A DNA stretch of 64,000 nt from a candidate division WOR-3 bacterium (GCA_965649225.1 CBFGJX010000001.1:41899-105898), one strand, 5' to 3'. Positions 1 to 24,436 are shown, numbered from the stretch's first letter. Notes: generated by a model not told the origin, from the sequence alone. Made by a program: numbers and translations.

Positions 1-182
1 AACCATCGTCTCGGATCCAGTAACCTCGTTGGGGTCAAGGGCAGCTGACCACCAAAAAGCAGGGCAGTCAACGAGGCAGCAACCCCGCCCACGATGAGCT
101 CCTGGTAATGAAAGGTCCACACGAGGACCAGCCAGAGTATCATGGCTGCCACCCAGTAGACCAGACGTTGTCCCAGCTTCAT
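1..182 (-). CDS. mnhE: Na+/H+ antiporter subunit E (MrpE/MnhE-like), 5' part only; runs off the window edge
   Basis: Not in the ORF track. Manual translation from ATG 182 gives MKLGQRLVYWVAAMILWLVLVWTFHYQELIVGGVAASLTALLFGG..., a hydrophobic MrpE-like N-terminus 1 nt after the mrpD-like stop. Confidence 0.75.
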   Translation of the reverse strand, partial: MKLGQRLVYWVAAMILWLVLVWTFHYQELIVGGVAASLTALLFGGQLPLTPTRLLDPRRW

Positions 183-183
183 C

Positions 184-1692
184 CTAACCTCCAAGCACGC
201 GACTGGCATAACCGATCCCGTCGAGTAAGGACCGGGTAGCCGGGCCGACCAACCAGTCGATAACTGGCCTCACCCCAAACCCGAAAGCTACACTCAACAG
301 GACCAGGACGACCATCGCCGCTGCCATTGTTGCCGGTGATTCTCTGGCCAGTGTCGCATCGACTCCACCGCGCAGCAGAAATGATTTTGTTGCTACCCGT
401 CCGAGGTAGGCCAGTGTCAAAACCGACAGCACCGCTATCAACAAAGCCAAGGGATACATCCGAACCTGAACTGCACCCAGCAGAATCAGCAGTTTCGAAA
501 AAAAGCCAATAAACGGCGGCAACCCCACGAGCGACAATGCACTAAGAATATATGACCACGTTGTCACTGGCATGGAACGTTCCAAACCCCTGACCACATC
601 AATGTCACGACTGCCGGCCTGTAGTTCCACTGAACCCGAGGTCAAAAAGAGCGTGCCCTTGCTAAGGGCGTGGGCAACGATATGCAGCAATGCACCCGCA
701 ACGCCCCAAAAACTGCCGATACCCAAGCCAACCAGGATGTAGCCGACTTGGCTGACACTTGAGTAAGCCAACATACGCTTCAAATCAGTCTGGACGAGAG
801 CCAGCAGTCCGCCGACAACTATCGACAACAATCCAAGTCCCAGCAACACGTCAAAAAAGACCGGGGCAGCGGCACGGGAAAGCCCGAAAACATTGAACAT
901 AACTCTGACCATCGCATAAATGCCTAGAACCTTGATGAACACTCCCGAGAGCAAAGCCGACACTGGTGCTGGTGCAGATGGATGTGCATCAGGCAACCAG
1001 GCATGGAATGGCACTACCGCCATTTTCACCGCGAAGCCAGTCAAGAAGGTCGCAACCAGAAACCAGTAGAACGGTGTCTTGCCCGCCGCTGCCAAAACCA
1101 AGGATGCATCGGCCATATTCAGAGTGCCGGTCCGGGCATAGAGCAATGCAATGGCGAGAAGTATCGTCAAACCGCCAATCTCGCCGATGACCATATACTT
1201 GAAACCAGCCTCAAGCTCATCGAAGTCAGTCCCGAATGCAACCAGAGCATACGAAGCGACTGCTGCAATCTCGATGAAAACGAACAGATTGAAAATATCG
1301 CCGGATACCACAGCCCCGTTCAAACCAACCAGCACCAGCAAAAAGAGAACATAAAACTTCCAGCGTGCCGTATAGTGATCGAGGTAGCGTATCGAAAAAA
1401 GCAAAGCAGCAGAAGCGACGACGTTGAGAGCCAACAGCATCAACCCGGTCAGTCCGTCGAAGACAAGAACAATGCCCAGCGGTGGTGGCCACCCACCCAT
1501 TCGGTAGACCAGCGTCGGGGAACCGCAGGCCACAAGCGCTACGCCATAGCCAGCCATGCCAAGCAGGACACTGCTGGCGAGGTTGGCGAGGATGTCACCG
1601 AAACCGCGCCACAGGCGACTGAACAGAGGGACGGCAAATGCTGCTGCCAGCGGTACAGCAACAAAGAGCGGCAGAAAACTTGAATCCGTCAT
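184..1692 (-). CDS. mnhD: MrpD/MbhH-like antiporter-like proton-translocating subunit (502 aa)
   Basis: About 14 TM segments with motifs DIFNLFVFIEI, KMAVVPFHAWLPDAHPSAP, DLKRMLAYSS, HALSKG. Confidence 0.9.
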   Translation of the reverse strand: MTDSSFLPLFVAVPLAAAFAVPLFSRLWRGFGDILANLASSVLLGMAGYGVALVACGSPTLVYRMGGWPPPLGIVLVFDGLTGLMLLALNVVASAALLFSIRYLDHYTARWKFYVLFLLVLVGLNGAVVSGDIFNLFVFIEIAAVASYALVAFGTDFDELEAGFKYMVIGEIGGLTILLAIALLYARTGTLNMADASLVLAAAGKTPFYWFLVATFLTGFAVKMAVVPFHAWLPDAHPSAPAPVSALLSGVFIKVLGIYAMVRVMFNVFGLSRAAAPVFFDVLLGLGLLSIVVGGLLALVQTDLKRMLAYSSVSQVGYILVGLGIGSFWGVAGALLHIVAHALSKGTLFLTSGSVELQAGSRDIDVVRGLERSMPVTTWSYILSALSLVGLPPFIGFFSKLLILLGAVQVRMYPLALLIAVLSVLTLAYLGRVATKSFLLRGGVDATLARESPATMAAAMVVLVLLSVAFGFGVRPVIDWLVGPATRSLLDGIGYASRVLGG

Positions 1693-1698
1693 AGCCGG

Positions 1699-2037
1699 CT
1701 ATCCTCTGAGCCTCCTTATTTCAGCGATATCGAAGGTCTTGTAGCGCTCATAAATCCTCATGGCGAGTGCCAGCATCAGTGCGGTAGTGGCAAGACCGAT
1801 GACAATTGACGTCAACACCAGAGCCTGTGGCAGTGGATCGACAAACTTGGTTGCAGTACCAGCCTCGGTAATAATCGGCGGTAGCGCTCCGCGACGATAG
1901 CCGATCACCGCAAAGAGGACATTGATTGCGTACTCCATCAGCGTGAAGCCAATCACAATCCGAATCAGGTTGCCTTTCGCCACTACGGCATAGAGGCCAA
2001 CAACAAAAAGCAGAATGCAAGCCAGGATCGGTACCAC
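1699..2037 (-). CDS. mnhC: MrpC/MbhG-like subunit (NuoK family)
   Basis: 3 TM segments; NLIRIVIG and DPLPQALVLTSIVIG motifs. Confidence 0.9.
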   Translation of the reverse strand: MVPILACILLFVVGLYAVVAKGNLIRIVIGFTLMEYAINVLFAVIGYRRGALPPIITEAGTATKFVDPLPQALVLTSIVIGLATTALMLALAMRIYERYKTFDIAEIRRLRG

Positions 2038-2039
2038 GG

Positions 2040-2480
2040 CTACTCCTTCATCGCAAACCTTGAAGCACCAAGCGCCAGAAAAACCGCCAGCAGTCCCGCG
2101 CCGACCTTGATGCCGATGGCGATATTTGCCGGCATTATCAGTCCGCCGCTAAAGAGATGCAACGGCCGCCCGATGCCGAAGATCGGACCGTTCAAAAAGA
2201 AGTATCGCCCCCCAACATAACCAGCGAGAGCGAGCGCGAGAAAACCGATCCCCCCGAGACTTTCAAATACCGAGGAAAAAGCGTAGGAGCTGCGCTCGGC
2301 GCTCTCTACGGAGCCAAAAGCAAGTGAAAACAGGATGAACGATGCTGCCACCAGGACACCGCCGGCAAATCCCCCTCCCGGGCTGAGGTGCCCATGGACA
2401 ATTATGTAGCAGCCATAAAGGAAAAGCATCCCCCCAAGCAGTCGAGCAATCGTTTGAACAATGAGTGACATGCCACGCAT
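2040..2480 (-). CDS. mnhB: MrpB/MbhF-like subunit
   Basis: HGHLSPGGGFAGG motif. Start moved to ATG 2480, which has a GGAGG RBS. Confidence 0.88.
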   Translation of the reverse strand: MRGMSLIVQTIARLLGGMLFLYGCYIIVHGHLSPGGGFAGGVLVAASFILFSLAFGSVESAERSSYAFSSVFESLGGIGFLALALAGYVGGRYFFLNGPIFGIGRPLHLFSGGLIMPANIAIGIKVGAGLLAVFLALGASRFAMKE

Positions 2481-2481
2481 A

Positions 2482-3042
2482 CTATCCCTCCGAACCTGAA
2501 TGGCCCGTCGTCCGGCGACCGACACGGCGCACAATAACGAGCACGCCGATCACCGCCGCAAACAGAACCGTGGCTTCGCCCAAAGTATCGTAGCCGCGAA
2601 AATCAAGGATTATCGCCGCCACGAGGTTTGCCGCACCGGTTCGCTGCAAACCAGTGCGGACATATTCATCAGCGACACGCATTACCGGATTGCCCCAAAA
2701 AACAGCTATCTCCGGCAATGCCCGAAGAGCCACGCCAAGGAGCAGAATGCTGAAAACGGCAAAAGCCGTCAGAGGCAGGACCGGTATCGAAGCTGGCCCG
2801 CGCGCGACAGTGCTGTCCGTGCTGGTCGTCCGCAAAACCACCGCTGCAAAAAAGACTACCGTGAGCACTTCAACAACTATTTGAACGATCGCCAAATCTG
2901 GAGCCTGCAAAAGCAGGAATACAATAGCAACGCTGAAGCCGACTATCCCCAGCGCCACCGCCGCTGCCAGCAAATCCTTAACATGAATCGCAACCAGTGC
3001 CGCCCCAAGCATCACTGCCAGCAATATGTAAAGCTCTATCAT
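2482..3042 (-). CDS. DUF4040 + MnhB-N domain subunit (MbhD/MbhE-like)
   Basis: APDLAIVQIVVE and NLVAAIILDFRGYDTLGE motifs. ATG 3042 overlaps the upstream TGA (TGATG). Confidence 0.85.
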   Translation of the reverse strand: MIELYILLAVMLGAALVAIHVKDLLAAAVALGIVGFSVAIVFLLLQAPDLAIVQIVVEVLTVVFFAAVVLRTTSTDSTVARGPASIPVLPLTAFAVFSILLLGVALRALPEIAVFWGNPVMRVADEYVRTGLQRTGAANLVAAIILDFRGYDTLGEATVLFAAVIGVLVIVRRVGRRTTGHSGSEG

Positions 3043-4955
3043 CACCGTACCAGGATCAACATTACATAGAAAACGACCGCCCCTAGGAATACCCAAGCGA
3101 CGTACAGCGGCAGGTAACCGGTCTGCACTCTGGACAACAGCTTGCCGCACAGCTGTGCCAATCTGCCAAGAAATGCAAAGATGCTCTCGAGAATCTGACG
3201 ACTAAACTCGCGAGCCAGACTGCCAGCTGATCTCAAGGCAGCATCCAGCCAGTTGTAGAGATCAAAGGCCCCGATTCCGCCGAAATAAATCAACTCGCCC
3301 AGCAAGGGCAGGGTCTTAACCGGACCGTAGAAGGCAGTACCCGGTACCCGGCTCTCGTCCAGCTCGGCAATGCTCTCGCCGCCCACGTAAGCTTTACCGG
3401 CAACCGGTGCAGCGGCAGTGCCCGAAATGTACACCACGATTCCGATACCCAGGGAGAGCAACAACAGTAATGTCGCCGGAAGCGGCTGCCAGATCCCTAT
3501 CGGTTCAAAGTGACCTGACGCCGGAAGCGAGCGCTGAAGCAATGTCTCGAGCCCGAGCTGCTTCTGAAACACTCCAAAGGCAATGCAGGCCAGAGCAAGA
3601 ATGCCGGATGGAAGCCACATCGAAAAACCGGTCTCGCGCACGCCCTCCAGTCGTGACGGTCTCTGCCCCAAAAATACCGCATGGAGCAGCTTGACGAACG
3701 AAGCAAGGGTCAGCACGCTCCCGACCATTGCCGCTACCAGAAAAACCGGAAACAATCTCTGGCCTTCTCCACCTGAAATCACTATACCTTGATAAACCAT
3801 CCACTTGGACAAAAAGCCGTTCAATGGCGGTAGTCCAGCGATGGCCAGCGCTGCAACCAGAAACGAAACAAATGTGGCCGGCATCTGCCCCGCCAGACCT
3901 CCCAGCTCATCGACACGATCCGTCCCCGTTCGCTCCTGAACTGAACCGGCCGCAAGGAACAACCCGGTCTTGTAAAGCGTGTTGTTCAGCATGTGGAGCA
4001 GGCCACCGGCAAGCCCGACCGGGACGCCGCTGCCGATGCCAATAATCATGTACCCAACCTGGGAGACGGCATGAAACGCCAGCAACCGCATCACCCGCTT
4101 CTGGACCAGTGCCATAATCACGGCGGCCAGAACTGTCAGCGAACCAAGAGCCATCAGACCAGTGCGAACGGCCATGTTCGACGCAATATCAAAAACGTAG
4201 ACCGAAAGCCGAAAGAGCAGGTATATGCCGAGCAGTTTGTCCAACGTCGCCGGAATGAGTGCCATCACAGGAGCCGGAGAATTCTCTGAGGCTGCCGGAA
4301 TCCACGAATGGAAGGGCATTGCGCCGGCCTTGGCCAGCGCCCCAACTGCCACAAGAACGAATGCCACCACCATAACCGGCTCAGCAAGTCGCATAGCAAC
4401 CGGAGGGGCAATTTCAAGCCAGCCACCGCTCACTGCCAGCAGCACAATCCCCAGCAGCATCGCGAAATCAGAAAGACCAACCAGGACCAGCATTTTCGTT
4501 GCCGCGACATGGCGGTCTCCCCGCCCGACCAGCAACAACCCGTAAGACAGAGCGAGAAGACAGCCCCAGAAGAAAAGCAGTACCAGCAGGTTGGCCGCAA
4601 GCAGAACACCAAATGAACATGCAAGCGCCAGAAGAGCATACAGGTAGAATCCGCGTTCCCCCGGCGTACTGCGCACGGCGCGAACTGAGTAGAGAATTAT
4701 CAGAGCGCCCAGCCCAGCCGCAAAAAGCAAAAGCAAACCCGAGAGAGCATCAAGCCGGAATGCAACCTCGATGCCAGCCCGTTGCAAAACACTGAACACT
4801 ATAACATCACGACGAGACTGAACGAATAGACAAATGACATAGTAGAGCGGAACGACACTGCCGATGAAACTGAGTTCAGCCCGCAACTTGCCGATGATGT
4901 AGGCAAGCAATGCCGATACCACGGGAATCAACATGATCAGCAGAAACGGGTGCAT
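3042..4955 (-). CDS. MrpA/NuoL/HyfB-like antiporter-like subunit with C-terminal extension (637 aa)
   Basis: KAGAMPFHSWIP, RLLAFHAVSQ, LPPLNGFLSKW, and a C-terminal amphipathic stretch ending QTGYLPLY. TGATG-coupled start at 4955. Confidence 0.88.
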   Translation of the reverse strand: MHPFLLIMLIPVVSALLAYIIGKLRAELSFIGSVVPLYYVICLFVQSRRDVIVFSVLQRAGIEVAFRLDALSGLLLLFAAGLGALIILYSVRAVRSTPGERGFYLYALLALACSFGVLLAANLLVLLFFWGCLLALSYGLLLVGRGDRHVAATKMLVLVGLSDFAMLLGIVLLAVSGGWLEIAPPVAMRLAEPVMVVAFVLVAVGALAKAGAMPFHSWIPAASENSPAPVMALIPATLDKLLGIYLLFRLSVYVFDIASNMAVRTGLMALGSLTVLAAVIMALVQKRVMRLLAFHAVSQVGYMIIGIGSGVPVGLAGGLLHMLNNTLYKTGLFLAAGSVQERTGTDRVDELGGLAGQMPATFVSFLVAALAIAGLPPLNGFLSKWMVYQGIVISGGEGQRLFPVFLVAAMVGSVLTLASFVKLLHAVFLGQRPSRLEGVRETGFSMWLPSGILALACIAFGVFQKQLGLETLLQRSLPASGHFEPIGIWQPLPATLLLLLSLGIGIVVYISGTAAAPVAGKAYVGGESIAELDESRVPGTAFYGPVKTLPLLGELIYFGGIGAFDLYNWLDAALRSAGSLAREFSRQILESIFAFLGRLAQLCGKLLSRVQTGYLPLYVAWVFLGAVVFYVMLILVR

Positions 4956-6190
4956 CAGTGCCCCCCCACACCGAGCCCGACTTCCAGCCAGTTGACTGGC
5001 ACCCCATACAGAAATCCCCCGGCGAAAACGATCAACGCGATAACCGCGATCGCGATTATCGGCATGATCGGCGGGGATTGCCACTCAAAATCAGTCGGAC
5101 CGCCACCGAGAAAAACGGCAGTAAAGAGCCGGGTCATATAGACAAGGGTCAACAGCGCGGCAACAATTGCGCCAACGCCGAACACCAGACCACGGTCGAC
5201 GGCACCAATCAAAATCCCGACCTTGCCAAAGAAACCGAAAGAAGGAGGAATTCCAACCACCGTAAGAGTCAACAGGGCCGTCATCACCGCTAGAACGGGT
5301 GAATGCTGCGCCACGCGCCCCAGTTTGCTTATCTCATTCCTACCAGTGGCCTCCTCAACTAGACCAAATGCGTAAAACAATCCAGATTTTGCCAAAGCAT
5401 GAGTTGCCAGGTAAAGAAGTGCTCCGATCACGCCGTAGTACGAAACAGTCGCTAGTCCTAAAATCACCAGCCCCATTTGCCCCATCGTTGAGTACGCAAG
5501 CGTAGTCCGGATACTCCGAGAAGCCAGTGCCGCACCACCAGCGATAAGACTCGAAATCACCGCCAAAGCGGCAACAAAAGGCAAAAACCCGTCCGCTGCG
5601 CGCATCCCGGTGACGAAAAACTTGAAAAACATCACACCCCCGACGCTTTCGGCAACACCGGAAAGCAAAGCACAGATTGGTGCCGGTGCTGCACGATAGG
5701 CCCGAGGTAGCCAGACGTACAAAGGCAACACGGCCGACTTTGCAATTATCCCCGTAAGCAACAGAACCGCAGGCAACAACTCGATAGTTCGGCCGGCAAG
5801 ACCCGCAAAGCTCAGTGTCCGGTGCTGCTCGAAAACCAAAGCCAACCCAACCAGCATCACTGCCGAGGCGGCAAAATTCATGTACCAGGTCCAGGCCGCA
5901 GCATCGGCACTATCGTCCTGGCGATAAAACAACACCAAACGCCAGATAGCAAAACCGGACAGTTCCCAAAGGACGAAACCAACCAGGAGATTGCCGGCAT
6001 AAGCAATCCCGATGCCGCATGCTGTCAGGAGGACAACGAAAGCATAATATTCAGCAAGCTGACCCGCCGCAGCACGCACTCGGTAGATCGAATAGAGCAG
6101 CACCGTCAGCCCGACTACGCCAAATACAGTTCCCAAAAAGAACTCGACGGCACCGCCGCCAAAGTCAAACCAGTTGACGGGCAAAGTCAT
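4955..6190 (-). CDS. N-terminally shortened antiporter-like subunit (MrpD/NuoM family, 411 aa)
   Basis: VLWELSG, KSAVLPLYVWLPRAY, TLAYSTMGQ, HALAKS. ATGA overlap at 6187-6190. Confidence 0.85.
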   Translation of the reverse strand: MTLPVNWFDFGGGAVEFFLGTVFGVVGLTVLLYSIYRVRAAAGQLAEYYAFVVLLTACGIGIAYAGNLLVGFVLWELSGFAIWRLVLFYRQDDSADAAAWTWYMNFAASAVMLVGLALVFEQHRTLSFAGLAGRTIELLPAVLLLTGIIAKSAVLPLYVWLPRAYRAAPAPICALLSGVAESVGGVMFFKFFVTGMRAADGFLPFVAALAVISSLIAGGAALASRSIRTTLAYSTMGQMGLVILGLATVSYYGVIGALLYLATHALAKSGLFYAFGLVEEATGRNEISKLGRVAQHSPVLAVMTALLTLTVVGIPPSFGFFGKVGILIGAVDRGLVFGVGAIVAALLTLVYMTRLFTAVFLGGGPTDFEWQSPPIMPIIAIAVIALIVFAGGFLYGVPVNWLEVGLGVGGH

Positions 6191-7386: not shown

Positions 7387-7807
7387 AGTCTCTCCGCAGG
7401 GGCAGCCGGGAGGAATCCCAGTCGGTGTCCGAAGTGAGCAACGGCACCGGATTGGGATGACCGGCAAACTGGACGCCAAACATCTCGGCAATCTCGCGTT
7501 CAATCCATTCTGCAGCCGGAAACCAGACCGCCTGAGACTCCAAGACGGGATCGTCTTTCGGAACCATGACTTTCAGGGTATACATTACGCCTTGACTGTC
7601 GTCGGAAAAGTGGTACAGCACCTCATAGCCTTCGCGAGTGTCGATTCCCGTACAAATCGACAGCCGACAACCCAGCTCAAGATGCAACAGCCGACAGGCA
7701 GCAGTAAGGCTCTCGCGCCCGATACGAAGATAGTATCGCCGCGGGTTGTAGACCTGAACTTCAGCGTCGGGGAAACGCTCCCGGAAAGCCTGTTCGATTG
7801 CTGTCAT
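7355..7807 (-). CDS. NuoC/MbhK-like subunit
   Basis: AEWIEREIAEMFGVQFAGHP and PLRRD motifs. ATGA overlap at 7804-7807. Confidence 0.88.
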   Translation of the reverse strand: MTAIEQAFRERFPDAEVQVYNPRRYYLRIGRESLTAACRLLHLELGCRLSICTGIDTREGYEVLYHFSDDSQGVMYTLKVMVPKDDPVLESQAVWFPAAEWIEREIAEMFGVQFAGHPNPVPLLTSDTDWDSSRLPLRRDYEHRARQHEE

Positions 7808-8220
7808 AGTCTTGCCAGCGCCCGGACAACGCCGAGTATCATTGCTTCGGGTTTTGGCGGGCAACCCGGCACATAAGCGTGCATCGGCAGATGGCGGTCA
7901 TAGGGCCCAACGGCGTTGTAGGAATTGCGAAACAACTGTTTGCCACAGGCGCACGTGCCAATCCCGATAACCAGACAGGGCTTAGCAGTCTGCCGGTAAG
8001 TCTCGAGTACACGCGGCAACGATTTGCGGTTAATGACGCCGGTCACCAGCAACGCATCGGCGTGACGCGGCGAGCCGACCAGAACAACTCCAAACCTTTC
8101 AACATCGTACCGGGGAGTGAGCAACTCCAGTATCTCGATGTCACAGTTGTTGCATGACGCCGCCGCCAAGTGATACACCCACGGAGCGCGTTTCAGCCCC
8201 CAGAGTCCAACTCTATTCAT
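7804..8220 (-). CDS. Hydrogenase small subunit (NuoB/MbhJ-like)
   Basis: SCNNCDIE, SPRHAD, GTCAC, PGCPP. Confidence 0.92.
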   Translation of the reverse strand: MNRVGLWGLKRAPWVYHLAAASCNNCDIEILELLTPRYDVERFGVVLVGSPRHADALLVTGVINRKSLPRVLETYRQTAKPCLVIGIGTCACGKQLFRNSYNAVGPYDRHLPMHAYVPGCPPKPEAMILGVVRALARL

Positions 8221-9146
8221 AGACCCACCGACGCAAGTATGACCGCGGCGATGCCGACAGCGCCCAGTACAAACCAGAAAAAGCGCAATGCCTGATCAAC
8301 CCGGAGACGTGGATTGGTGTTCTTAACCAGAATCACCGGGACAACAACCGCAAGAATTTTGAGTACTGCCCACCAATCACGGACTCCGCCCCACAACACT
8401 GTCACCAGAAACACCGGCAGGAGCAGCAACATCATCGCCCGGGTTATCCGGAATGCTGCCAGCGTAACCCCGGAGTACTCGACAAAAACCCCGCCCATGA
8501 TTTCCTGTTCAGCCTCGGCCATATCGAACGGCACAAGTCCCAGCTTGGCCTGAATCACCAGCAGAATGATGACTGCTGCCAGCACCCCGGAAATCGAGTA
8601 AAGAAACGGCCCCTGCTCTAACTGTACCCGTACCATCTCACCGAGTCTCAAGGCACCGTTCGCCTTGATGACCGGTACCAGCAGAGCAAGCACAAACGGA
8701 AACTCGTAACCGAGGTACAGGGTCATCTCCCGCGAGGCTCCGACTGCAGCGAGCGGGTTTCGGCTGGCTGATGCACCCAGCAGCACCCCCAGTGGCGGCA
8801 AGGCAAAAAGATAAATCAGCACAAGGATGTCGCCGATAAACGAACCATCGGGCTGGTAATTGACATAGAACAGTAGCGCACCGACTAGACACATTCCCGC
8901 CAGCCCAAGCAAGGGTGCCAGCAGGAAAGTTGCACGATGAGCGCCAGCCGGCACGATCGTCTGCTTTATCGAAAGCTTGAGCAAGTCGGCCCAGGGTTGA
9001 AAGATCGGTGGCCCCTTGCGCATCTGAACACGGGCGCTGACGAAACGGTCTACCCAACTTAGAAGCATGCCGACATTCGCACTGAACAGAAAACTCAGCA
9101 GGACTGCAAGAGCATATTCCAGCCCTCTGGTGTACCCGAGGTTCAC
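8217..9146 (-). CDS. NuoH/MbhM-like membrane subunit
   Basis: ARVQMRKGPP, QPWADLLKL, GASREM, PFDMAEAEQEI, NPRLRVDQ. GTG 9146 has a GGAGG RBS and a GTGA overlap. Confidence 0.9.
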   Translation of the reverse strand: MNLGYTRGLEYALAVLLSFLFSANVGMLLSWVDRFVSARVQMRKGPPIFQPWADLLKLSIKQTIVPAGAHRATFLLAPLLGLAGMCLVGALLFYVNYQPDGSFIGDILVLIYLFALPPLGVLLGASASRNPLAAVGASREMTLYLGYEFPFVLALLVPVIKANGALRLGEMVRVQLEQGPFLYSISGVLAAVIILLVIQAKLGLVPFDMAEAEQEIMGGVFVEYSGVTLAAFRITRAMMLLLLPVFLVTVLWGGVRDWWAVLKILAVVVPVILVKNTNPRLRVDQALRFFWFVLGAVGIAAVILASVGL

Positions 9147-9607
9147 GAGCGCCTCCAATGCGCCGACCGCCCGAGCAACCGAGCTCCAACCCGAACCTCT
9201 CGCGTCGTCTCGACCTCGACAAACTGCAAAGCACCGGTAGGGCAGGTTTGGACACAACGCGGTCCCTCCGGCCGGTCACTGCACAAACTGCACTTCTGCG
9301 CCATATGTCGGACAAGCTCAGGCTGTATCACACCAAACGGGCAGGCCAGAGCGCAGGAACGACATCCGACGCAGTGGAAATCAGACTTGCGAACGACGCC
9401 ACCGGCAGGGTCACGGACAATAACCCCGAACGGACAGGCAGCGGCACATAACGGCTCAGCGCAGTGCCGGCATGCCTGAGGCAGAAGCGTACCGGGGTCA
9501 AGCTCAGCATGCCGGATCCGTGCCTCGCCCTTGAAACGGGACCGGCACGCCGCTTCGCACGACCGGCAGCCGATACAGTAATCCAAACGCAGTACAATGC
9601 TCTTCAC
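9143..9607 (-). CDS. HycB/HyfA/DmsB-like 4x[4Fe-4S] electron-transfer protein
   Basis: CIGCRSCEAAC, CRHCAEPLCAAAC, CVGCRSCALACP, KCSLC..P.CVQTCP. GTGA overlap at 9604-9607. Confidence 0.9.
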   Translation of the reverse strand: MKSIVLRLDYCIGCRSCEAACRSRFKGEARIRHAELDPGTLLPQACRHCAEPLCAAACPFGVIVRDPAGGVVRKSDFHCVGCRSCALACPFGVIQPELVRHMAQKCSLCSDRPEGPRCVQTCPTGALQFVEVETTREVRVGARLLGRSAHWRRS

Positions 9608-11247
9608 TGCCAGACCGACGGGTTTTCGCCGCCCATCACGGCGACACGGTCGAGTTTCTCCACGGAACATCTTGTTGGCAGCACCGAGAGTTCACCATCG
9701 AGCGCGTCCGGCTGCGGCCGCAATAGCGCACGATTGGAATGAACATTAACACCGACGACCACCGCCCCGGCCGGAGCTGCATCGCTGATACGCACACGCA
9801 GATCAACACTCCCCGCATCGGTGGTTACACGCGCAAATCCGCCATCACCAGTTCCAAGCCGAGTGGCGTCAACAGAGTTCAATAACACCCAGTCCTCTTT
9901 GTCGAAGAAGCCGCGCAGGCCGATCGCCTTCTTCTCTCCGACAAACAGCCAATCATCAGAACCTGCCGAACCAACGGTGTCGGCCATCTGCTGTGCCAGC
10001 GCAATCACCGCAGCCGGCTCAACCGACCTGACAGGTGACTCAGCCAGCTCACCAGCCCGGCCAAAGAGTTCGAGAACTCGGCCAAAGGGACGTGAACCGC
10101 TGACCGGACCGGCCAGAGGTTGACGTTCCACATTGCCCCAGTAGGAAGTCCCTGTTGAAGATCGTTCCAGCTCCGCGGCTAGGGGCAGAACCAGTCCCTT
10201 GATCGGAGGGTCGGGCCGGAAGATAGCAGTCGCGACACGATACTCAATGCCATCAAGCTCCGGCAGTAAACCGGCATATGAGTACGGATACAGCCCACCA
10301 GTCCAGAATATCATTCTCACCCCGCCCTCACGGGCAGCCCGACAGAGACCAGCGAAGCTCTCGGTTCCTGCCGGAACAGCGCTCTCCCGGAACCCAACAA
10401 ACGGCTTCTTCCCAGCCAGTGCTACCAGCTGGCAAGCAAGGCTGTGCAAAGCAGGATGACAAACCCGGGCAGGATGCATTGCCGCACCAACGAACCCGGG
10501 TATATCCGGTTTTAGCATCTTGGCCACTTCTACCAGCTCATCCCGGGTCGTACCTGCAAGCGCTGCAAACCGATCAATGTCAACACCAGTTCTGAATTGC
10601 TCGTCCAGCAATGCGGCAAGTGCCACCAGTACCAGTGGTTCAGTACCTACCCGAACCCGAAGAAACCGATTGGCCAGACCACTTTGTCTGGTGCGCACAG
10701 AATCGACCACAACCATCCGGCTGCTTCGATCCGCGTAACGCGCATCAACCAGCCGCCAGGAAGCAACCGGTGACGTATTGAACACATCACCAATCAACAA
10801 CGTTGCCCGCGACCTATCCAGGTCCTCAAGCATCGCATCCCTCACCCCCGCCAGCCGATGGTTGAAAGCATTCTCGGGCTCAATATGCCCGCAAACGAGA
10901 TGAGGTGTTCCAATCGCAGCGGCCAAGCCGCGCAGGCGCCGCACCTCGTCCGCCGAACGCCCCCGGCTGTACACCAAAGCCAGCTCCGCCGGTCGAATTG
11001 CAGCAAGCCAGCCGCGGATCATCGCTTCCGCCTCAGACCACGTAATGTCGCGCCCGTCGAACAGCGGCCGGGATAACCGCTCGGGATGATCAAGCACTAT
11101 GCTGGCCGAATTACCGCGCGGGCAGAGCCGACCACGGTTCACTTCGGCTTCAGTGAAGTAGTGCATTCGATACTGGTAGCCGTTGAAGTCAACGCCTGAG
11201 GTACAACCGTTCAAACAGAAAGGACAGGTCGTCTTGGCGCTAGTCAT
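9604..11247 (-). CDS. Shortened molybdopterin-oxidoreductase-fold protein (FdhA/NuoG C-terminal-like, 547 aa)
   Basis: N-terminal CPFCLNGC...LCPRG Fe-S motif and a C-terminal Molydop_binding-like segment (LNSVDATRLG..GGFARV). Much shorter than FdhF. Confidence 0.75.
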   Translation of the reverse strand: MTSAKTTCPFCLNGCTSGVDFNGYQYRMHYFTEAEVNRGRLCPRGNSASIVLDHPERLSRPLFDGRDITWSEAEAMIRGWLAAIRPAELALVYSRGRSADEVRRLRGLAAAIGTPHLVCGHIEPENAFNHRLAGVRDAMLEDLDRSRATLLIGDVFNTSPVASWRLVDARYADRSSRMVVVDSVRTRQSGLANRFLRVRVGTEPLVLVALAALLDEQFRTGVDIDRFAALAGTTRDELVEVAKMLKPDIPGFVGAAMHPARVCHPALHSLACQLVALAGKKPFVGFRESAVPAGTESFAGLCRAAREGGVRMIFWTGGLYPYSYAGLLPELDGIEYRVATAIFRPDPPIKGLVLPLAAELERSSTGTSYWGNVERQPLAGPVSGSRPFGRVLELFGRAGELAESPVRSVEPAAVIALAQQMADTVGSAGSDDWLFVGEKKAIGLRGFFDKEDWVLLNSVDATRLGTGDGGFARVTTDAGSVDLRVRISDAAPAGAVVVGVNVHSNRALLRPQPDALDGELSVLPTRCSVEKLDRVAVMGGENPSVWQ

Positions 11248-12062
11248 CAAACGAACGGCTCCTCGATATCCTTTATCTGCTCCCAGGTGAGTACCGGCCC
11301 GTCCTTACAGGTGAAATACGGCCCCAGTTTGCAGTGGCCACACTGACCCAGGCCGCAGGACATGTTCATCTCCATCGAAAGATAGATGTTCTGCCCCCGA
11401 AAACCGGCGTCGAGGAGTTTCTTGGTGACAAACTTCATCATCACCGGGGGCCCGCAGACCACTGCGACGCTCTCTTTCTCGTCACAAGGGATCTCGTCCA
11501 TCAAACAGGTCACAACACCTACCTTTTTCATCCACCTTTCGTCCGAAACGTCCACCGAGAGATCGATGTCGACGCCAGGCAGTTTTTCCCATTCAGGCAA
11601 CAGGTACTTGTAGACAATATCGGCCGGCGTCCGCGCCCCGTATCGGAGAAAAATCCGCTTGTACTTCTGTTTTTCGTGTATCAACGCCAGAAACAAGGCC
11701 CGCAATGGCGCCAACCCGACGCCCCCGCCAACAATGTAAATGTCACGTCCTTCGAACTTCTCCAGCGGGTAACGCATCCCGTATGGTCCACGCAATCCGA
11801 CATAATCACCCGGCTGAAGGCCAAACAGCGCCGTAGTTGCCCGTCCAACCCGCATTATTGTCACCTCCAGTGTTTCGCGCTGAAAATGCGACGAAGAAGG
11901 CGTGAAGGGCGCCTCGCCATGGCCAGGTACAGTGAGTTCGACAAACTGACCAGCGAGGAACGGAATCTCCCGCTCCGGCCTGAGTACGAACGTCCTGATA
12001 TTCGGCGTCTCGTCAATCAGCCTCAGAATCTCGGCCCGGACCGGCTGATAGGGGTTGTTCAT
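11247..12062 (-). CDS. FAD/NAD(P)-binding subunit, sulfhydrogenase gamma / AsrB (HydG) family
   Basis: AGQFVEL, APFTPSS, LRGPYG, GGGVGLAP, CGPPVMM, [2Fe-2S] motif MSCGLGQCGHC...C. Confidence 0.9.
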   Translation of the reverse strand: MNNPYQPVRAEILRLIDETPNIRTFVLRPEREIPFLAGQFVELTVPGHGEAPFTPSSSHFQRETLEVTIMRVGRATTALFGLQPGDYVGLRGPYGMRYPLEKFEGRDIYIVGGGVGLAPLRALFLALIHEKQKYKRIFLRYGARTPADIVYKYLLPEWEKLPGVDIDLSVDVSDERWMKKVGVVTCLMDEIPCDEKESVAVVCGPPVMMKFVTKKLLDAGFRGQNIYLSMEMNMSCGLGQCGHCKLGPYFTCKDGPVLTWEQIKDIEEPFV

Positions 12063-13093
12063 ACCGACAACAGCACCCGACGGATGTCGATTTTGCCCAT
12101 ACAAACCCGGAAGCAGCGTCCGCACCCGGAACAGGCATAGAAACCGTTGCTGTTCTTGAAGTGTTGAAATTTGCATTCAAAACGGTTCGCAAACCGTCGT
12201 AGAAACTGACCACGAGGATTCGCACCGCCTCCGACCCGCTGATAGGCCGCCAGATAGCAGGCATCCCATACCTTCAGCCGTTCCATCTGCCTGCCTTGCA
12301 GTTGATCGTAAAGCAGAAAGCAGTAACAGGTGGGACAGCTCAACAGGCAACCATAACACTCAACGCAGTCGGCTGCGTGCTCGGCATAGAACGGCGCGTC
12401 GGTTTCACGCCGGCGCAACCGCGCAGGCAAATCCGCCGGCAATGGTTCAGGGTTGATTTCAGCAAGCTTCGCTTCGGCCCCGGCCCGGATCTCGTCACGT
12501 CGTTGCACCAAGGCTTCATCTGCCTGTCCCGGCAACACATCATCCAGCAACGCCAGCAGTTCCTGCCCCCGCGGCGTCAGTGGCTCAACCAGCCACTGCC
12601 CATCGACTTCCGACACAACCACGTCGGCGCCCTCGCGAACATACGGTCGGCCTCCGACAAGGTTGCAGAAACACGAATCTGCCGGAGCTGGACAATCGGC
12701 CGCTACCAGAATCGTGTTCTCCAGCCGTAGCTGGTAGAAAGGGTCGACGAACTCACCCTCCAGAAACATCTTCCGGTGCACTGCCAAGGCTGCGATATCG
12801 CAACCCTTGACGCCGAAAAGCACCTGCTTGTCAGATGAAGCTGGTTCCGATGGATCAGGAAAACTGGCGACGGTCTCGCGGGATTTGAACAAGAAAGATT
12901 TCACCGGCTCCGCCGCTCTTATTTGGGTCAGCGCCGGAACCGGTGATTGCGTGCCGCCGAGACCCCCCGGCGGGCCAAACTTCTGCCAGTGGATATGGTT
13001 TTCTACCGCCTGGGGCACGAACAAAGTGAACCGCGCGCCAATGCGCTCAAGCCACTGCACCTGTTGCTCACGCGATAGGCAGCTGCTCGCCAC
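12059..13093 (-). CDS. 4Fe-4S subunit, sulfhydrogenase beta / AsrA (HydB) family
   Basis: EPVKSFLF, FGVKGCD, CVECYGCLLSCPTCYC, CSGCGRCFRVC. The track start TTG 13129 is the -35 TTGACA, so GTG 13093 is preferred. Confidence 0.88.
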   Translation of the reverse strand: MASSCLSREQQVQWLERIGARFTLFVPQAVENHIHWQKFGPPGGLGGTQSPVPALTQIRAAEPVKSFLFKSRETVASFPDPSEPASSDKQVLFGVKGCDIAALAVHRKMFLEGEFVDPFYQLRLENTILVAADCPAPADSCFCNLVGGRPYVREGADVVVSEVDGQWLVEPLTPRGQELLALLDDVLPGQADEALVQRRDEIRAGAEAKLAEINPEPLPADLPARLRRRETDAPFYAEHAADCVECYGCLLSCPTCYCFLLYDQLQGRQMERLKVWDACYLAAYQRVGGGANPRGQFLRRFANRFECKFQHFKNSNGFYACSGCGRCFRVCMGKIDIRRVLLSV

Positions 13094-13101
13094 TTGGCGC
13101 A

Positions 13102-13129
13102 AAAATACCGACTGCCATCGGCATGTCAA
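13102..13129 (-). promoter_or_regulatory. sigma70-type promoter of the hydrogenase operon (TTGACA-N16-TATTTT)
   Basis: Read directly on the minus strand; 8 nt upstream of GTG 13093 with no SD. Confidence 0.55.
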
Positions 13130-13182
13130 GAAAAAAGTCAGACTTGATAACGGAACCTTTATCGTTCATCATTCCGGCGGTA

Positions 13183-24427: not shown

Positions 24428-24436
24428 GAGGACAAA

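What the first reader, a model, noticed from the sequence alone, without database searches (positions are those of the whole stretch)
1..13093. Mrp-coupled group 4 [NiFe]-hydrogenase operon carrying its own NAD(P)-interacting module
Seen: at least 14 co-oriented genes, most joined by 1-4 nt stop/start overlaps, under one promoter. Order is AsrA/HydB-like, AsrB/HydG-like (FAD, NAD(P), 2Fe-2S), NuoG/FdhA-like, HycB-like, NuoH, NuoB, NuoC, large subunit with intact RICGIC/DPCYCC, three antiporter-like subunits, MrpB/C/E. Known: Mbh/Ech-type enzymes use ferredoxin, whereas HydB/HydG is the NAD(P)H module of soluble group 3b sulfhydrogenases; E0' is -414 mV for H+/H2 and -320 mV for NAD+/NADH. Inference: a single ion-translocating H2:NAD(P)+ oxidoreductase, either conserving energy from H2 oxidation or using ion-motive force to evolve H2 from NAD(P)H. 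It would be a hydrogenase analogue of complex I with a non-NuoEF input. Similar clusters may already be noted in MAG surveys, so novelty needs checking.
Basis: partly seen in the sequence, partly recalled or inferred. Interest (0 to 1): 0.82.

Follow-up and report, generated by a model that had tools for sequence, protein, structure and literature searches.

The report
Membrane hydrogenase with built-in NAD(P)H module
A candidate-division WOR-3 bacterium carries one long operon for a membrane-bound, ion-pumping nickel-iron hydrogenase fused to a flavoprotein module that probably links hydrogen directly to NAD(P)H. This gene layout is widespread in uncultured anaerobes and has been noticed in genome surveys, but nobody has tested it biochemically.

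Summary
It lies on the minus strand, and the operon runs off the window's left end. Fifteen co-oriented genes (14 complete) are mostly joined by 1-4 nt overlaps. They encode HydB-like, HydG-like, a divergent molybdopterin-fold (MopB-like) protein, a HycB-like polyferredoxin, NuoH/B/C, a group 4 [NiFe] large subunit, three antiporter-like subunits and Mrp small subunits. Complete homologous operons add MrpF, MrpG and a HycF-like subunit.

The organism is a candidate division WOR-3 bacterium. All cofactor-binding residues of HydB, HydG, HycB, NuoB and the large subunit are invariant across relatives. In an unbiased search starting from the large subunit, 30 of 30 informative loci carry HydB and HydG upstream. 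These loci span Omnitrophota, Elusimicrobiota and Fermentibacteria.

The MopB-like gene is absent from most of that wider clade. It evolves fastest, lacks the Cys/Sec-His catalytic pair, and keeps only its [4Fe-4S] site. It is therefore probably a connector and not a formate dehydrogenase.

Best reading: a reversible, ion-coupled NAD(P)H:H+ (H2:NAD(P)+) oxidoreductase. The function is untested. The layout was already noted for Saganbacteria (2019) and Elusimicrobia (2020) as an "Mbh-Mrp-oxidoreductase type" of unknown function.

The parts
13102..13129 (-). Sigma-70-like promoter candidate (TTGACA-16 nt-TATTTT) in the only intergenic gap upstream of the operon. It ends 8 nt before the GTG start of the first gene, so the mRNA may be leaderless.
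   Evidence: best match in the region, 10 of 12; sequence read. This is a consensus match only.
12059..13093 (-). HydB/AsrA-like iron-sulfur subunit (344 aa), homolog of the beta subunit of P. furiosus sulfhydrogenase I. Sixteen Cys are invariant.
   Evidence: Pfam Fer4_22; NCBIfam ShyB 8e-39 and HydB 2e-36, both below cut-off; PDB 9nez_B 2.7e-30; Cys conservation in 46 homologs.
11247..12062 (-). HydG/AsrB-like flavoprotein (271 aa) with an FNR-type FAD domain, an NAD(P)-binding GGGVGLAPLR motif and a C-terminal [2Fe-2S] site. This is the proposed NAD(P)(H) site.
   Evidence: Pfam FAD_binding_6, NAD_binding_1 and DHODB_Fe-S_bind; PDB 9nez_C (sulfhydrogenase gamma) 1.1e-49; motifs and C236/C241/C244/C252 invariant in 49 homologs.
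9604..11247 (-). Compact, divergent molybdopterin-oxidoreductase-fold protein (547 aa). It keeps an N-terminal [4Fe-4S] site but lacks the Cys/Sec-His catalytic pair. It is probably a non-catalytic connector or scaffold.
   Evidence: Weak Pfam matches; AF2 model pLDDT 87.8; Foldseek hits to Fdh, Nap, FdhH and NuoG at TM 0.69-0.80 with 14-18% identity; E123-P124 aligns to Sec/Cys-His; only the four FeS Cys stay invariant in wider alignments; absent from 34 of 48 related loci.
9143..9607 (-). HycB/CooF-like polyferredoxin (154 aa). Four CxxCxxCxxxC-type motifs give 16 invariant Cys, consistent with four [4Fe-4S] clusters.
   Evidence: Pfam Fer4_11; PDB HycB 7z0s_B 1e-19 and 9mqx_E 1.2e-20; conservation.
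8217..9146 (-). NuoH/MbhM/HycD-like membrane subunit that links the peripheral and membrane arms.
   Evidence: Pfam NADHdh 1e-58.
7804..8220 (-). NuoB-like hydrogenase small subunit (138 aa). C23, C26, C90 and C120 are invariant, consistent with one proximal [4Fe-4S] cluster.
   Evidence: Pfam Oxidored_q6; conservation.
7355..7807 (-). NuoC-like subunit (150 aa). It overlaps the next gene by 32 nt.
   Evidence: Pfam Complex1_30kDa; junctions.
6187..7386 (-). Group 4 [NiFe]-hydrogenase large subunit (399 aa). The L1 motif (RICGICSNSH) and L2 motif (DPCYCCTER) are intact. About 32 aa follow the L2 Arg, which implies endopeptidase maturation.
   Evidence: Pfam NiFeSe_Hases plus Complex1_49kDa; PDB MbhL 6cfw_L 9e-82, HycE 7z0s_E 4.5e-78, MbsL 1.4e-44; C72/C75/C361/C364 invariant.
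4955..6190 (-). Antiporter-like subunit 1 (411 aa, MrpD/NuoN-like).
   Evidence: Pfam Proton_antipo_M; PDB MrpD 7d3u_D 8e-30.
3042..4955 (-). Antiporter-like subunit 2 (637 aa, NuoL/MrpA-like). Its closest solved relative is the 618-aa 'NADH dehydrogenase subunit M' chain of the membrane-bound sulfane reductase MBS.
   Evidence: Pfam Proton_antipo_M plus a weak Proton_antipo_N match; PDB 6u8y_X 4.5e-49 and MbhH 2.6e-47.
2482..3045 (-). MbhD/MbhE-like fused small membrane subunit.
   Evidence: Pfam MbhD and MbhE.
2040..2480 (-). MnhB/MrpB-like membrane subunit.
   Evidence: Pfam MnhB.
1699..2037 (-). MnhC/NuoK-like membrane subunit.
   Evidence: Pfam Oxidored_q2.
184..1692 (-). Antiporter-like subunit 3 (502 aa), full-length ortholog of MbhH/MrpD.
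   Evidence: Pfam Proton_antipo_M; PDB MbhH 6cfw_H 3e-85 over the full length.
1..181 (-). N-terminal 60 aa of an MrpE-like subunit, cut off by the window end. In complete homologous operons MrpF, MrpG and a roughly 205-aa HycF/NuoI-like 2x[4Fe-4S] subunit follow.
   Evidence: Translation. No Pfam hit for the 60-aa fragment on its own. The identification rests on visible similarity to the MNHE protein at the same position in L001 (sequence printed) and on operon position. Homologous operon L001.

Best explanation
The operon encodes one multisubunit, membrane-bound, ion-translocating group 4 [NiFe]-hydrogenase whose electron partner is NAD(P)(H) instead of free ferredoxin or formate.

Proposed path (inferred): NAD(P)H binds the FNR-type flavoprotein HydG. 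Electrons pass from FAD to the HydG [2Fe-2S] cluster, then through the [4Fe-4S] clusters of HydB. From there they reach the four-cluster HycB-like polyferredoxin, with the [4Fe-4S] of the degenerate MopB-like subunit as a side or bridging station. They continue to the HycF/NuoI-like subunit (encoded just beyond the window), then the NuoB cluster, then the NiFe site, where H+ is reduced to H2.

The NuoH-like subunit, three antiporter-like subunits and the Mrp small subunits couple this reaction to H+/Na+ movement. The redox span is small (E0' -320 against -414 mV, about 18 kJ/mol per H2), so the enzyme should work close to equilibrium. At low H2 it would vent NAD(P)H electrons as H2. At higher H2 that reaction would have to be driven by the ion gradient, or the enzyme would run backwards as an energy-conserving H2:NAD(P)+ oxidoreductase.

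Shown: gene content, cofactor-ligand conservation, strict co-inheritance of HydB/HydG with this large-subunit clade, and degeneracy and dispensability of the MopB-like subunit.

Inferred: physical assembly into one complex, NAD(P)H as substrate, ion coupling, and direction of catalysis.
For: 1. Tight translational coupling of all 15 genes.
2. HydB and HydG are homologs of the beta and gamma subunits of the solved NADPH-dependent sulfhydrogenase I (9nez; 2.7e-30 and 1.1e-49).
3. The HydG FAD motif (APFTPSS), the NAD(P) motif (GGGVGLAPLR), the CGPP motif and the four [2Fe-2S] Cys are invariant in 49 homologs. So are 16 Cys in HydB, 16 Cys in HycB, 4 Cys in NuoB and the 4 NiFe Cys.
4. HydG is as conserved as the catalytic core (63-89% identity, against 67-91% for the large subunit) across 46 species-level loci, with fixed gene order and three different membrane-arm layouts.
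5. Unbiased reverse test: 30 of 30 large-subunit-anchored metagenome loci with at least 6.3 kb upstream carry HydB and HydG. These include lineages named Omnitrophota, Endomicrobiia and Fermentibacteria/Aegiribacteria.
6. The MopB-like gene is absent in 34 of 48 loci. It is the fastest-evolving subunit (24-71% identity), has no Pfam hit in some lineages and lacks Cys/Sec-His. Formate or another MopB substrate is therefore not the conserved partner.
7. The HycB-like and HycF-like subunits match the formate hydrogenlyase wire better than MbhN. This is a buried, dedicated input path.
8. The large subunit is nearest to MbhL and HycE and much farther from the non-hydrogenase MbsL.
Against: - No biochemical or structural evidence exists for any member of this clade.
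- The NCBIfam equivalog models for HydB, HydG and AsrA/B are matched only far below their cut-offs, so these proteins are relatives and not orthologs of characterised enzymes.
- AsrAB/HydBG-type modules also serve sulfite and sulfur reduction, so the physiological partner of HydG/HydB could differ.
- NAD against NADP specificity could not be assigned.
- Three antiporter-like subunits look generous for an 18 kJ/mol reaction.
- Interfaces and cluster distances were not modelled.
- Ferredoxin access to the HycB-like or HycF-like subunits cannot be excluded.
- Authors of MAG studies assumed Mbh-like ferredoxin coupling (PMC6349859; PMC8542988).
Confidence: 0.5

Rival explanations
1. Three-way hub resembling formate hydrogenlyase. 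The MopB-like subunit would still bind a Mo/W-pterin with an unusual ligand (the Glu of the invariant E-P pair in the WOR-3 subclade) and oxidise or reduce an unknown small substrate. Electrons would be shared between H+/H2 and NAD(P)+ through HydBG.
For: - The MopB fold is fully retained (TM 0.75-0.80 to Fdh/Nap).
- Motifs resembling pterin-binding motifs (GDVF..SP, DS.RT, PGTE) and the E123-P124 pair are invariant within the WOR-3 subclade.
- The gene position (before HycB) is that of FdhF in formate hydrogenlyases.
- Formylmethanofuran dehydrogenase B plus D subunits show that a MopB unit of about 560 aa can be catalytic (PDB hits 8rja_B and 9sfi_S).
Against: - The Cys/Sec-His dyad is replaced. 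None of roughly 100 compact family representatives has it.
- E-P itself is lost in more distant operons, while only the four FeS Cys stay invariant.
- It is the fastest-evolving subunit, and Pfam cannot detect it in some lineages.
- The gene is absent from 34 of 48 related operons that keep everything else.
Confidence: 0.15
2. Ferredoxin-coupled Mrp-Mbh, as usually annotated. The HydBG module would add a second donor, so that the complex confurcates electrons (NAD(P)H plus reduced ferredoxin giving 2 H2) or acts as a membrane-bound ferredoxin:NAD(P)+ oxidoreductase with a hydrogenase vent.
For: - The nearest solved relative of the large subunit and of the MbhH-like subunit is ferredoxin-dependent Mbh.
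- HydDB lists group 4g, the class assigned to Mrp-linked hydrogenases of Omnitrophota MAGs (not shown to be the loci found here), as putatively ferredoxin-coupled (PMC5037454; PMC8542988).
- HycB-type polyferredoxins act as multi-partner connectors in other enzymes (PMC12318220).
Against: - No recognisable bifurcating flavin site is present. HydG is a simple FNR/PyrK-type one-flavin protein, and HydB has only Fe-S domains.
- The NuoI-like subunit resembles HycF, which is capped by HycB in formate hydrogenlyase, more than MbhN.
- The universal retention of HydBG argues that it is the main partner and not an add-on.
Confidence: 0.2
3. Sulfur-linked enzyme. As in 'sulfhydrogenase' or AsrABC, HydB/HydG would deliver electrons to polysulfide/S0 or sulfite, making the complex an H2:sulfur oxidoreductase or an analogue of MBS.
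For: - HydB and HydG match the ShyB/HydB/AsrA and HydG/AsrB models.
- Antiporter-like subunit 2 is closest to the 618-aa 'NADH dehydrogenase subunit M' chain of the membrane-bound sulfane reductase MBS (6u8y_X).
Against: - The large subunit keeps all four NiFe Cys and is far closer to MbhL and HycE than to MbsL (278 and 266 bits against 156 bits).
- No AsrC/siroheme subunit is found in the operon or in the Pfam-annotated ORFs of the window.
- In vivo S0 reduction by sulfhydrogenase is itself regarded as non-physiological (own knowledge).
Confidence: 0.05
4. Two independent enzymes that merely share an operon: a soluble HydBG-(MopB)-HycB oxidoreductase and a separate ferredoxin-dependent Mrp-Mbh.
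For: Saganbacteria also carry fdh plus asrAB-like clusters without a hydrogenase (PMC6349859, Supplementary Fig. 3c legend). The module can therefore exist on its own.
Against: - There are 4-nt overlaps across the supposed boundary (HycB/NuoH).
- The order is fixed in all loci seen, across at least five phylum-level lineages and three membrane-arm types.
- The terminal HycF-like subunit needs a HycB-like partner by analogy with formate hydrogenlyase.
Confidence: 0.07

Closest known systems
'Mbh-Mrp-oxidoreductase type' group 4 [NiFe]-hydrogenase clusters noted in MAG surveys (Saganbacteria RX5A, Matheus Carnevali et al. 2019, PMC6349859; groundwater Elusimicrobia, Meheust et al. 2020, bioRxiv 10.1101/765248)
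   Same: The gene content is the same: asrA-like, asrB-like, an unclassifiable molybdopterin protein with one Fe-S domain, a cooF/hycB-like protein, NuoB/C/D/H/I homologs and Mrp antiporter subunits. The authors also suggested that the asrA/asrB/cooF-like genes 'may play similar roles' to nuoE/nuoF.
   Different: Those reports are descriptive, call the enzyme 'enigmatic' or of unknown function, and assume Mbh-like behaviour. Results added here:
- the WOR-3 instance
- strict HydBG co-inheritance (30 of 30 loci)
- degeneracy of the MopB-like subunit and its absence from most of the clade
- three membrane-arm variants

Direct orthology to the Saganbacteria proteins was not tested, because no sequences were available.
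Pyrococcus furiosus membrane-bound hydrogenase Mbh (group 4d; PDB 6CFW)
   Same: Nearest solved large subunit (9e-82) and MbhH ortholog (3e-85). It shares MbhD/E, MnhB, MnhC and MrpE-G-like small subunits and a NuoH-like anchor.
   Different: Mbh takes electrons from free ferredoxin at MbhN and has one antiporter-like subunit. This enzyme has four extra redox subunits (HydB, HydG, MopB-like, HycB-like), a HycF-like rather than MbhN-like terminal ferredoxin subunit, and three antiporter-like subunits.
Formate hydrogenlyase (E. coli FHL-1, PDB 7Z0S; Thermococcus Fdh-Mfh-Mnh, group 4b)
   Same: The wire architecture is the same: MopB protein, HycB-like four-cluster ferredoxin, HycF-like subunit, NuoB-like subunit, NiFe. 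Thermococcales FHL also has three Pfam00361 subunits plus Mnh genes (PMC2678158, Table 4).
   Different: The MopB-like subunit lacks the Sec/Cys-His catalytic pair and is dispensable in relatives. A HydBG flavoprotein module is present, which no characterised FHL has.
Group 3b NAD(P)-dependent sulfhydrogenase (P. furiosus SHI, PDB 9NEZ), beta and gamma subunits
   Same: HydB-like and HydG-like are clear homologs with the same Cys patterns and the same FAD/NAD(P) motifs.
   Different: In SHI the beta-gamma pair docks onto a soluble group 3 alpha-delta hydrogenase. Here the pair is encoded with a membrane-bound group 4 enzyme. Scores are far below the NCBIfam equivalog cut-offs (133 bits against 690; 177 bits against 650).
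Respiratory complex I (NuoA-N)
   Same: It shares homologous NuoB/C/D/H/I/K/L/M/N modules and NADH as (proposed) substrate. It also has a catalytically dead MopB-fold domain (the NuoG C-terminus) acting as a scaffold, which Foldseek hits at TM 0.69.
   Different: There is no NuoE/NuoF FMN module; the input is an FNR-type FAD protein. The acceptor site is a NiFe centre reducing H+ and not a quinone pocket.

Membership tests
Group 4 (energy-converting) [NiFe]-hydrogenase | Large subunit of the NuoD family with two CxxC NiFe-binding motifs (L1 RxCGxCxxxH, L2 DPCxxCxxR) | tested here: met
   RICGICSNSH and DPCYCCTER are present. C72/C75/C361/C364 are invariant in 40 homologs. Pfam NiFeSe_Hases plus Complex1_49kDa.
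Group 4 (energy-converting) [NiFe]-hydrogenase | NuoB-like small subunit with a single [4Fe-4S] site, plus NuoC-, NuoH-, NuoI-like and at least one antiporter-like subunit | tested here: met
   The NuoI/HycF-like gene lies beyond the window end but is present in all complete homologous operons.
Group 4 (energy-converting) [NiFe]-hydrogenase | H2 evolution or uptake coupled to ion translocation | not testable with these tools
   Needs membrane-vesicle assays.
Mrp-linked ferredoxin-dependent Mbh (group 4d) | Mrp-type small subunits (MrpB/C/E/F/G homologs) plus an MbhH ortholog | tested here: met
   Pfam MbhD/E, MnhB and Oxidored_q2. MbhH 3e-85. MNHE, MrpF and PhaG are present in the homologous operon.
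Mrp-linked ferredoxin-dependent Mbh (group 4d) | Fourteen-subunit composition with no extra redox subunits; free ferredoxin as donor at MbhN | tested here: not met
   Four additional redox subunits are encoded in the operon. The terminal ferredoxin-like subunit is closer to HycF (62.5 bits) than to MbhN (41.3 bits). The donor itself cannot be tested.
Formate hydrogenlyase (groups 4a/4b) | Catalytic formate dehydrogenase with a Sec/Cys Mo/W ligand followed by His | tested here: not met
   Profile alignments put invariant E123-P124 on Sec/Cys-His. The motif is absent from all compact family members. The gene is absent in 34 of 48 related operons.
Formate hydrogenlyase (groups 4a/4b) | HycB-like four-cluster and HycF-like two-cluster ferredoxin subunits bridging to the small subunit | tested here: met
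   7z0s_B 1e-19. 7z0s_F 4e-16. 16 invariant Cys in HycB.
Group 3b sulfhydrogenase (HydABDG / ShyABCD) | Beta (HydB) and gamma (HydG) subunits with Fe-S, FAD and NAD(P) sites | tested here: inconclusive
   Clear homology and intact motifs, but scores are far below the NCBIfam equivalog cut-offs. These are paralogous relatives and not orthologs.
Group 3b sulfhydrogenase (HydABDG / ShyABCD) | Soluble group 3 alpha/delta catalytic dimer encoded together with beta/gamma | tested here: not met
   The catalytic subunits in the operon are group 4 (NuoD/NuoB-type) with membrane subunits.
Anaerobic sulfite reductase AsrABC | AsrC siroheme catalytic subunit next to AsrA/AsrB | tested here: not met
   No sulfite-reductase domain in the operon or in the Pfam-annotated ORFs of the window. 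The AsrA and AsrB models are matched below cut-off.
Respiratory complex I | NuoE/NuoF FMN-containing NADH dehydrogenase module and a quinone-reducing NuoD | tested here: not met
   No NuoE or NuoF homolog in the operon. NuoD carries NiFe ligands.
'Mbh-Mrp-oxidoreductase type' cluster (MAG literature) | asrA-like, asrB-like, unclassifiable MopB and cooF-like genes adjacent to Mbh and Mrp genes | tested here: met
   Gene content matches the published description (searches compared). Sequence-level orthology to the Saganbacteria and Elusimicrobia genes was not tested.
HydDB subgroup assignment (4b/4d/4g) | Placement of the large subunit by the HydDB classifier or by phylogeny | not tested
   HydDB is not available here and no reference sequences were on hand. 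Only relative PDB scores are available.

The most novel reading that the evidence does not exclude
The large-subunit clade that includes this operon, found here in WOR-3, Latescibacterota, Omnitrophota, Elusimicrobiota and Fermentibacterota, is a distinct and so far unrecognised functional subgroup of group 4 [NiFe]-hydrogenases. It would be an ion-motive NAD(P)H:H+ oxidoreductase: a 'hydrogen-evolving complex I' with an FNR-type (HydG) NAD(P)H input in place of a NuoF-type one. Such an enzyme would let fermenters dispose of NAD(P)H as H2 using the membrane potential, or conserve energy from H2-dependent NAD(P)+ reduction. In current annotation these operons can be read as separate 'sulfite reductase/sulfhydrogenase' and 'ferredoxin-dependent Mbh' parts.
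Probability: 0.45. Interest if true: 0.75.

Novelty: new variant of a known kind. Interest (0 to 1): 0.55.

Why it matters
Oxidising NADH to H2 is the thermodynamic bottleneck of anaerobic fermentation and syntrophy. The known solutions are electron-confurcating [FeFe]-hydrogenases and very low H2 pressure.

A membrane complex that couples NAD(P)H/H2 interconversion directly to the ion gradient would be a third solution. It would also be a missing functional intermediate between Mbh-type hydrogenases and NADH-oxidising complex I.

Its correct assignment would therefore change the metabolic models of several candidate phyla, which at present assume ferredoxin coupling.

The finding is not wholly new, because the layout has been reported twice in MAG papers. 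The added value here is evidence about which parts are essential (HydBG and the polyferredoxin) and which part is vestigial (the MopB-like subunit).

Tried and rejected
1. Formate dehydrogenase role for the MopB-like protein: rejected. The catalytic Sec/Cys-His pair is missing, and the gene is dispensable in relatives.
2. MBS/Mbx-type non-hydrogenase: rejected. The NiFe Cys are intact and invariant, and MbsL scores much lower.
3. AsrABC sulfite reductase: rejected. No AsrC was found.
4. WorABC/Bfu-type bifurcating 'plug': the HycB-like top PDB hit (9mqx_E) prompted a look at PMC12318220. The link between that PDB entry and that paper is my own guess. The module described there is NuoEFG-like and unrelated to HydBG.
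5. Searching for hyp genes or a HycI maturation protease in the window found none. A HycI gene sits directly upstream of the operon in one relative (L074).
6. HydDB classification, multimer modelling and a check for molybdenum-cofactor biosynthesis genes in the WOR-3 genome could not be done with the available tools or remaining caps.
7. NAD against NADP specificity of HydG could not be decided from sequence.
8. The Staphylothermus, Caldithrix and Hyd24-12 papers were checked for an earlier functional description and gave none.
9. A mis-framed translation of the upstream DUF2279 gene was discarded. The ORF 13123-13545 is the valid one.

Full report
**What is there**

The first 13.1 kb of the window carry one tightly packed gene string on the minus strand. 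Domain searches identify these products, in transcription order:

- a HydB/AsrA-like Fe-S protein (12059-13093)
- a HydG/AsrB-like FAD/NAD(P)/[2Fe-2S] flavoprotein (11247-12062)
- a 547-aa protein with only weak molybdopterin-oxidoreductase signatures (9604-11247)
- a HycB/CooF-like polyferredoxin (9143-9607)
- NuoH, NuoB and NuoC homologs
- a [NiFe] large subunit (6187-7386) with RICGICSNSH and DPCYCCTER
- two antiporter-like proteins
- an MbhD/E fusion, MnhB and MnhC
- an MbhH/MrpD ortholog
- the first 60 residues of an MrpE-like protein, which run off the window end

Junctions are -4, -1, -4, -4, -4, -4, -32, -4, -1, -4, +1, +2, +6, +2 nt. The only intergenic gap upstream holds the best sigma-70-like match of the region, at 13129-13102. 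That match is a consensus hit and no proof of a single transcript.

A divergent gene pair lies upstream on the plus strand: a DUF2279 lipoprotein and a TM1506/DUF1893 protein.

**Organism and full extent**

The large subunit has 75-85% identical homologs in many MAGs named candidate division WOR-3. In the complete WOR-3 chromosome CP070680.1 the same operon has 18 genes. After the MbhH-like gene it continues with MrpE, MrpF, MrpG and a 205-aa 2x[4Fe-4S] protein. The window therefore lacks the last three and a half genes.

**Nearest characterised proteins**

| Subunit | Nearest solved relatives |
|---|---|
| Large subunit | P. furiosus MbhL (9e-82), E. coli HycE (4.5e-78); the non-hydrogenase MbsL is much weaker (1.4e-44) |
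| HydB-like, HydG-like | beta and gamma subunits of the solved P. furiosus sulfhydrogenase I (9nez; 2.7e-30 and 1.1e-49) |
| HycB-like | HycB of formate hydrogenlyase (FHL) (1e-19) |
| Terminal ferredoxin-like subunit | HycF (62.5 bits), better than MbhN (41.3 bits) |
| 502-aa antiporter-like protein | full-length MbhH ortholog |
| 637-aa antiporter-like protein | the 618-aa 'NADH dehydrogenase subunit M' chain of MBS (6u8y_X) |

HydB-like and HydG-like score far below the NCBIfam equivalog cut-offs. In outline, the peripheral arm is FHL-like, the membrane arm is Mbh/MBS/Mrp-like, and a sulfhydrogenase-type beta-gamma module is added.

**Is the soluble module part of the enzyme?**

Two comparative tests address this.

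The first test scanned one genome per GTDB species with a profile of the MopB-like protein. It gave 46 loci with a full-length or contig-truncated relative (L007-L052). Almost all are WOR-3, one is labelled Latescibacterota, and several are labelled only 'bacterium' or 'uncultured bacterium'. Wherever the contig allows, the order HydB-HydG-MopB-HycB-NuoH-NuoB-NuoC-large subunit is kept. It is combined with three different membrane arms:

- the window's type, with three antiporter-like subunits
- a type with one antiporter-like subunit plus Mrp small subunits
- a minimal type with one antiporter-like subunit and no Mrp genes

The second test ran in the reverse, unbiased direction. A large-subunit profile scan of metagenome contigs returned 80 loci with 59-84% identity. 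Thirty of them have at least 6.3 kb upstream of the large subunit, and all 30 carry HydB and HydG in the same position. NCBI names the HydG proteins of the more distant loci as Omnitrophota, Endomicrobiia (Elusimicrobiota) and Fermentibacteria/Aegiribacteria.

**Cofactor sites**

All of the following are invariant across 40-56 non-identical homologs:

- 16 Cys of HydB
- the APFTPSS (FAD), GGGVGLAPLR (NAD(P)) and CGPP motifs of HydG, and its four [2Fe-2S] Cys
- 16 Cys of HycB
- four Cys of NuoB
- the four NiFe Cys

HydG is as conserved as the catalytic core: 63-89% identity, against 67-91% for the large subunit. This argues for a working flavoprotein under strong selection.

**The MopB-like subunit**

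An AlphaFold model (pLDDT 87.8) confirms a compact molybdopterin-oxidoreductase fold. It is closest to Fdh, Nap and FdhH and also matches the cofactor-less NuoG domain, at 14-18% identity. Several results indicate that it is not a catalytic dehydrogenase:

- Profile alignments to solved formate dehydrogenases put an invariant Glu-Pro (E123-P124) where the Sec/Cys Mo/W ligand and the catalytic His lie.
- A search of 1.84 billion representative proteins finds a large, very divergent family of such compact proteins (102 at E<=1e-30). In a 122-sequence alignment, none of the 450-620 aa members has the CxRxCH motif that the canonical 650-900 aa hits carry.
- In operons where HydG is still 61-62% identical, the third gene has little or no Pfam signal. 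Only the four [4Fe-4S] Cys and a few structural residues remain invariant.
- It is the fastest-evolving subunit, at 24-71% identity.
- In 34 of 48 large-subunit-anchored loci HydG directly abuts the HycB-like gene, so the MopB-like gene is absent while everything else is retained.

The simplest reading is a vestigial dehydrogenase retained, in the WOR-3-centred subclade, as an Fe-S-bearing connector. This parallels the C-terminal domain of NuoG. A catalytic role with a novel ligand is not excluded for the WOR-3 subclade, but it cannot be the conserved function of the enzyme family.

**Mechanism proposed**

NAD(P)H would reduce FAD in HydG. Electrons would then pass through these stations in order:

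1. the HydG [2Fe-2S] cluster
2. the HydB clusters
3. the HycB-like four-cluster wire, with the MopB-like [4Fe-4S] nearby
4. the HycF-like subunit
5. the NuoB cluster
6. the NiFe site

The NuoH-like and antiporter-like/Mrp subunits would couple the reaction to H+/Na+ movement.

With E0' of -320 mV for NAD(P)+/NAD(P)H and -414 mV for H+/H2 (textbook values), the reaction carries about 18 kJ/mol. It reverses sign at roughly 10-100 Pa H2 (my estimate from the Nernst equation). The complex is therefore best viewed as a near-equilibrium, reversible coupling device. It would act as a redox valve for fermentative NAD(P)H at low H2. At higher H2 it would be a gradient-driven H2 producer or an energy-conserving H2:NAD(P)+ oxidoreductase.

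Reading the three antiporter-like proteins by eye shows the Lys-containing motifs that I recall as typical of transmembrane helices 7 and 12 of complex I antiporter-like subunits (from memory). This was not mapped by alignment. The 637-aa subunit appears to lack the helix-5 Glu (FFWGCLL).

All steps beyond gene content and conservation are inference.

**Rivals**

- A hub-type FHL-like enzyme with an unknown MopB substrate (0.15).
- A ferredoxin-coupled or confurcating Mbh (0.20).
- A sulfur-linked enzyme (0.05).
- Two unrelated enzymes sharing an operon (0.07).

The evidence for and against each is listed in the rival section of this report.

**Prior knowledge**

The layout is not new to the literature.

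- Matheus Carnevali et al. 2019 (PMC6349859) described an 'enigmatic' Saganbacteria group 4 hydrogenase. [quoted passage not shown] They suggested an oxidoreductase module with a role like nuoE/nuoF and hypothesised Mbh-like function.
- Meheust et al. 2020 (bioRxiv 10.1101/765248) named an 'Mbh-Mrp-oxidoreductase type' in Elusimicrobia and stated that the function of the oxidoreductase is unknown.
- A Lost City study noted a divergent, unplaceable FDH-like sequence in a WOR-3 MAG (PMC9469722).
- Studies of Omnitrophota and Hyd24-12 genomes annotate Mrp-linked or membrane-embedded hydrogenases as ferredoxin-dependent (PMC8542988, PMC5030696). Whether those are the operons found here was not checked.
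- HydDB lists group 4g as 'undetermined role' (PMC5037454).

The library searches used here turned up no biochemical or structural work on this type.

**Verdict**

Integration of the HydBG module is strongly supported by comparative genomics, but function is untested.
- On novelty, this is a variant of known group 4 hydrogenases that has been seen before but not explained.

The additions from this analysis are the universality of HydBG in the clade, the vestigial nature and patchy presence of the MopB-like subunit, and the FHL-like wiring.

Noticed in passing
window 49114-51554 (+): A second [NiFe]-hydrogenase. The small subunit (325 aa) is VhuG-like (2.6e-57) and the large subunit (487 aa) is VhuA-like (6e-123). 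It resembles group 3c/Mvh-type enzymes, but no MvhD or Hdr genes lie beside it. It is flanked by an unknown 448-aa ORF and glycosyltransferases. A 63%-identical large subunit lies about 9 kb upstream of the HydBG-hydrogenase operon in L072.
   Followed up: partly
window 13123-13976 (+): A divergent gene pair directly upstream of the operon: a DUF2279 lipoprotein-like ORF and a TM1506/DUF1893 protein. The TM1506 gene is found close upstream of the operon, on the opposite strand, in 17 related loci. No functional link is known.
   Followed up: partly
window 6187-6282 (-), and L074:8533-8982: The large subunit carries about 32 residues after the DPCxxCxxR Arg, implying cleavage by a HycI-type protease. 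No hyp or hycI genes are in the window. One relative (L074) has a HycI gene immediately upstream of hydB.
   Followed up: partly
window 9604-11247 (-) and proteins P0338-P0485: The MopB-like protein belongs to a large, highly divergent family of compact (450-620 aa) molybdopterin-fold proteins. They keep the N-terminal [4Fe-4S] Cys (sometimes as a Cys-Cys-Asp-Cys variant) and an acidic residue near the former active site, but none has the Cys/Sec-His pair. The genomic contexts of the distant members are unknown.
   Followed up: partly
window 3042-4955 (-): The 637-aa antiporter-like subunit seems to have Gly in place of the conserved transmembrane-helix-5 Glu (FFWGCLL). The other two subunits keep it (LWELSG, FIEIAA). 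This was read by eye and not checked by alignment or for conservation.
   Followed up: no
window 22184-26633 (+): Two tandem paralogs with DUF6754 (360 and 383 aa; 1e-108 and 4e-119) are followed by three co-oriented ORFs (222, 301 and 209 aa) with no Pfam match.
   Followed up: no
window 38757-47565: A cluster related to fermentation and fatty-acid metabolism: acetyl-CoA synthetase-like AMP-binding enzyme, MFS transporter, malic enzyme, two acyl-CoA dehydrogenases and a two-subunit CoA transferase. This fits an NAD(P)H-generating heterotrophic lifestyle.
   Followed up: no
window 29802-37803 (-): A TamB-like protein (1121 aa) and an Omp85/POTRA protein (593 aa) form a pair, indicating a diderm envelope. 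Next to them lies a 911-aa TPR-containing sigma-54 activator.
   Followed up: no
window 1-6000: Strong positive AT skew on the plus strand (0.30-0.40) over the membrane-subunit genes, falling to about 0.03-0.1 beyond the operon. The likely cause is T-rich codons of hydrophobic proteins encoded on the minus strand.
   Followed up: no
L004, L005, L047; L040, L043, L048-L050: The same HydBG-MopB-HycB-hydrogenase core occurs with reduced membrane arms. One form has a single antiporter-like subunit and no Mrp genes. Another has one antiporter-like subunit plus Mrp small subunits. The ion-translocating part therefore appears to be swapped modularly.
   Followed up: partly
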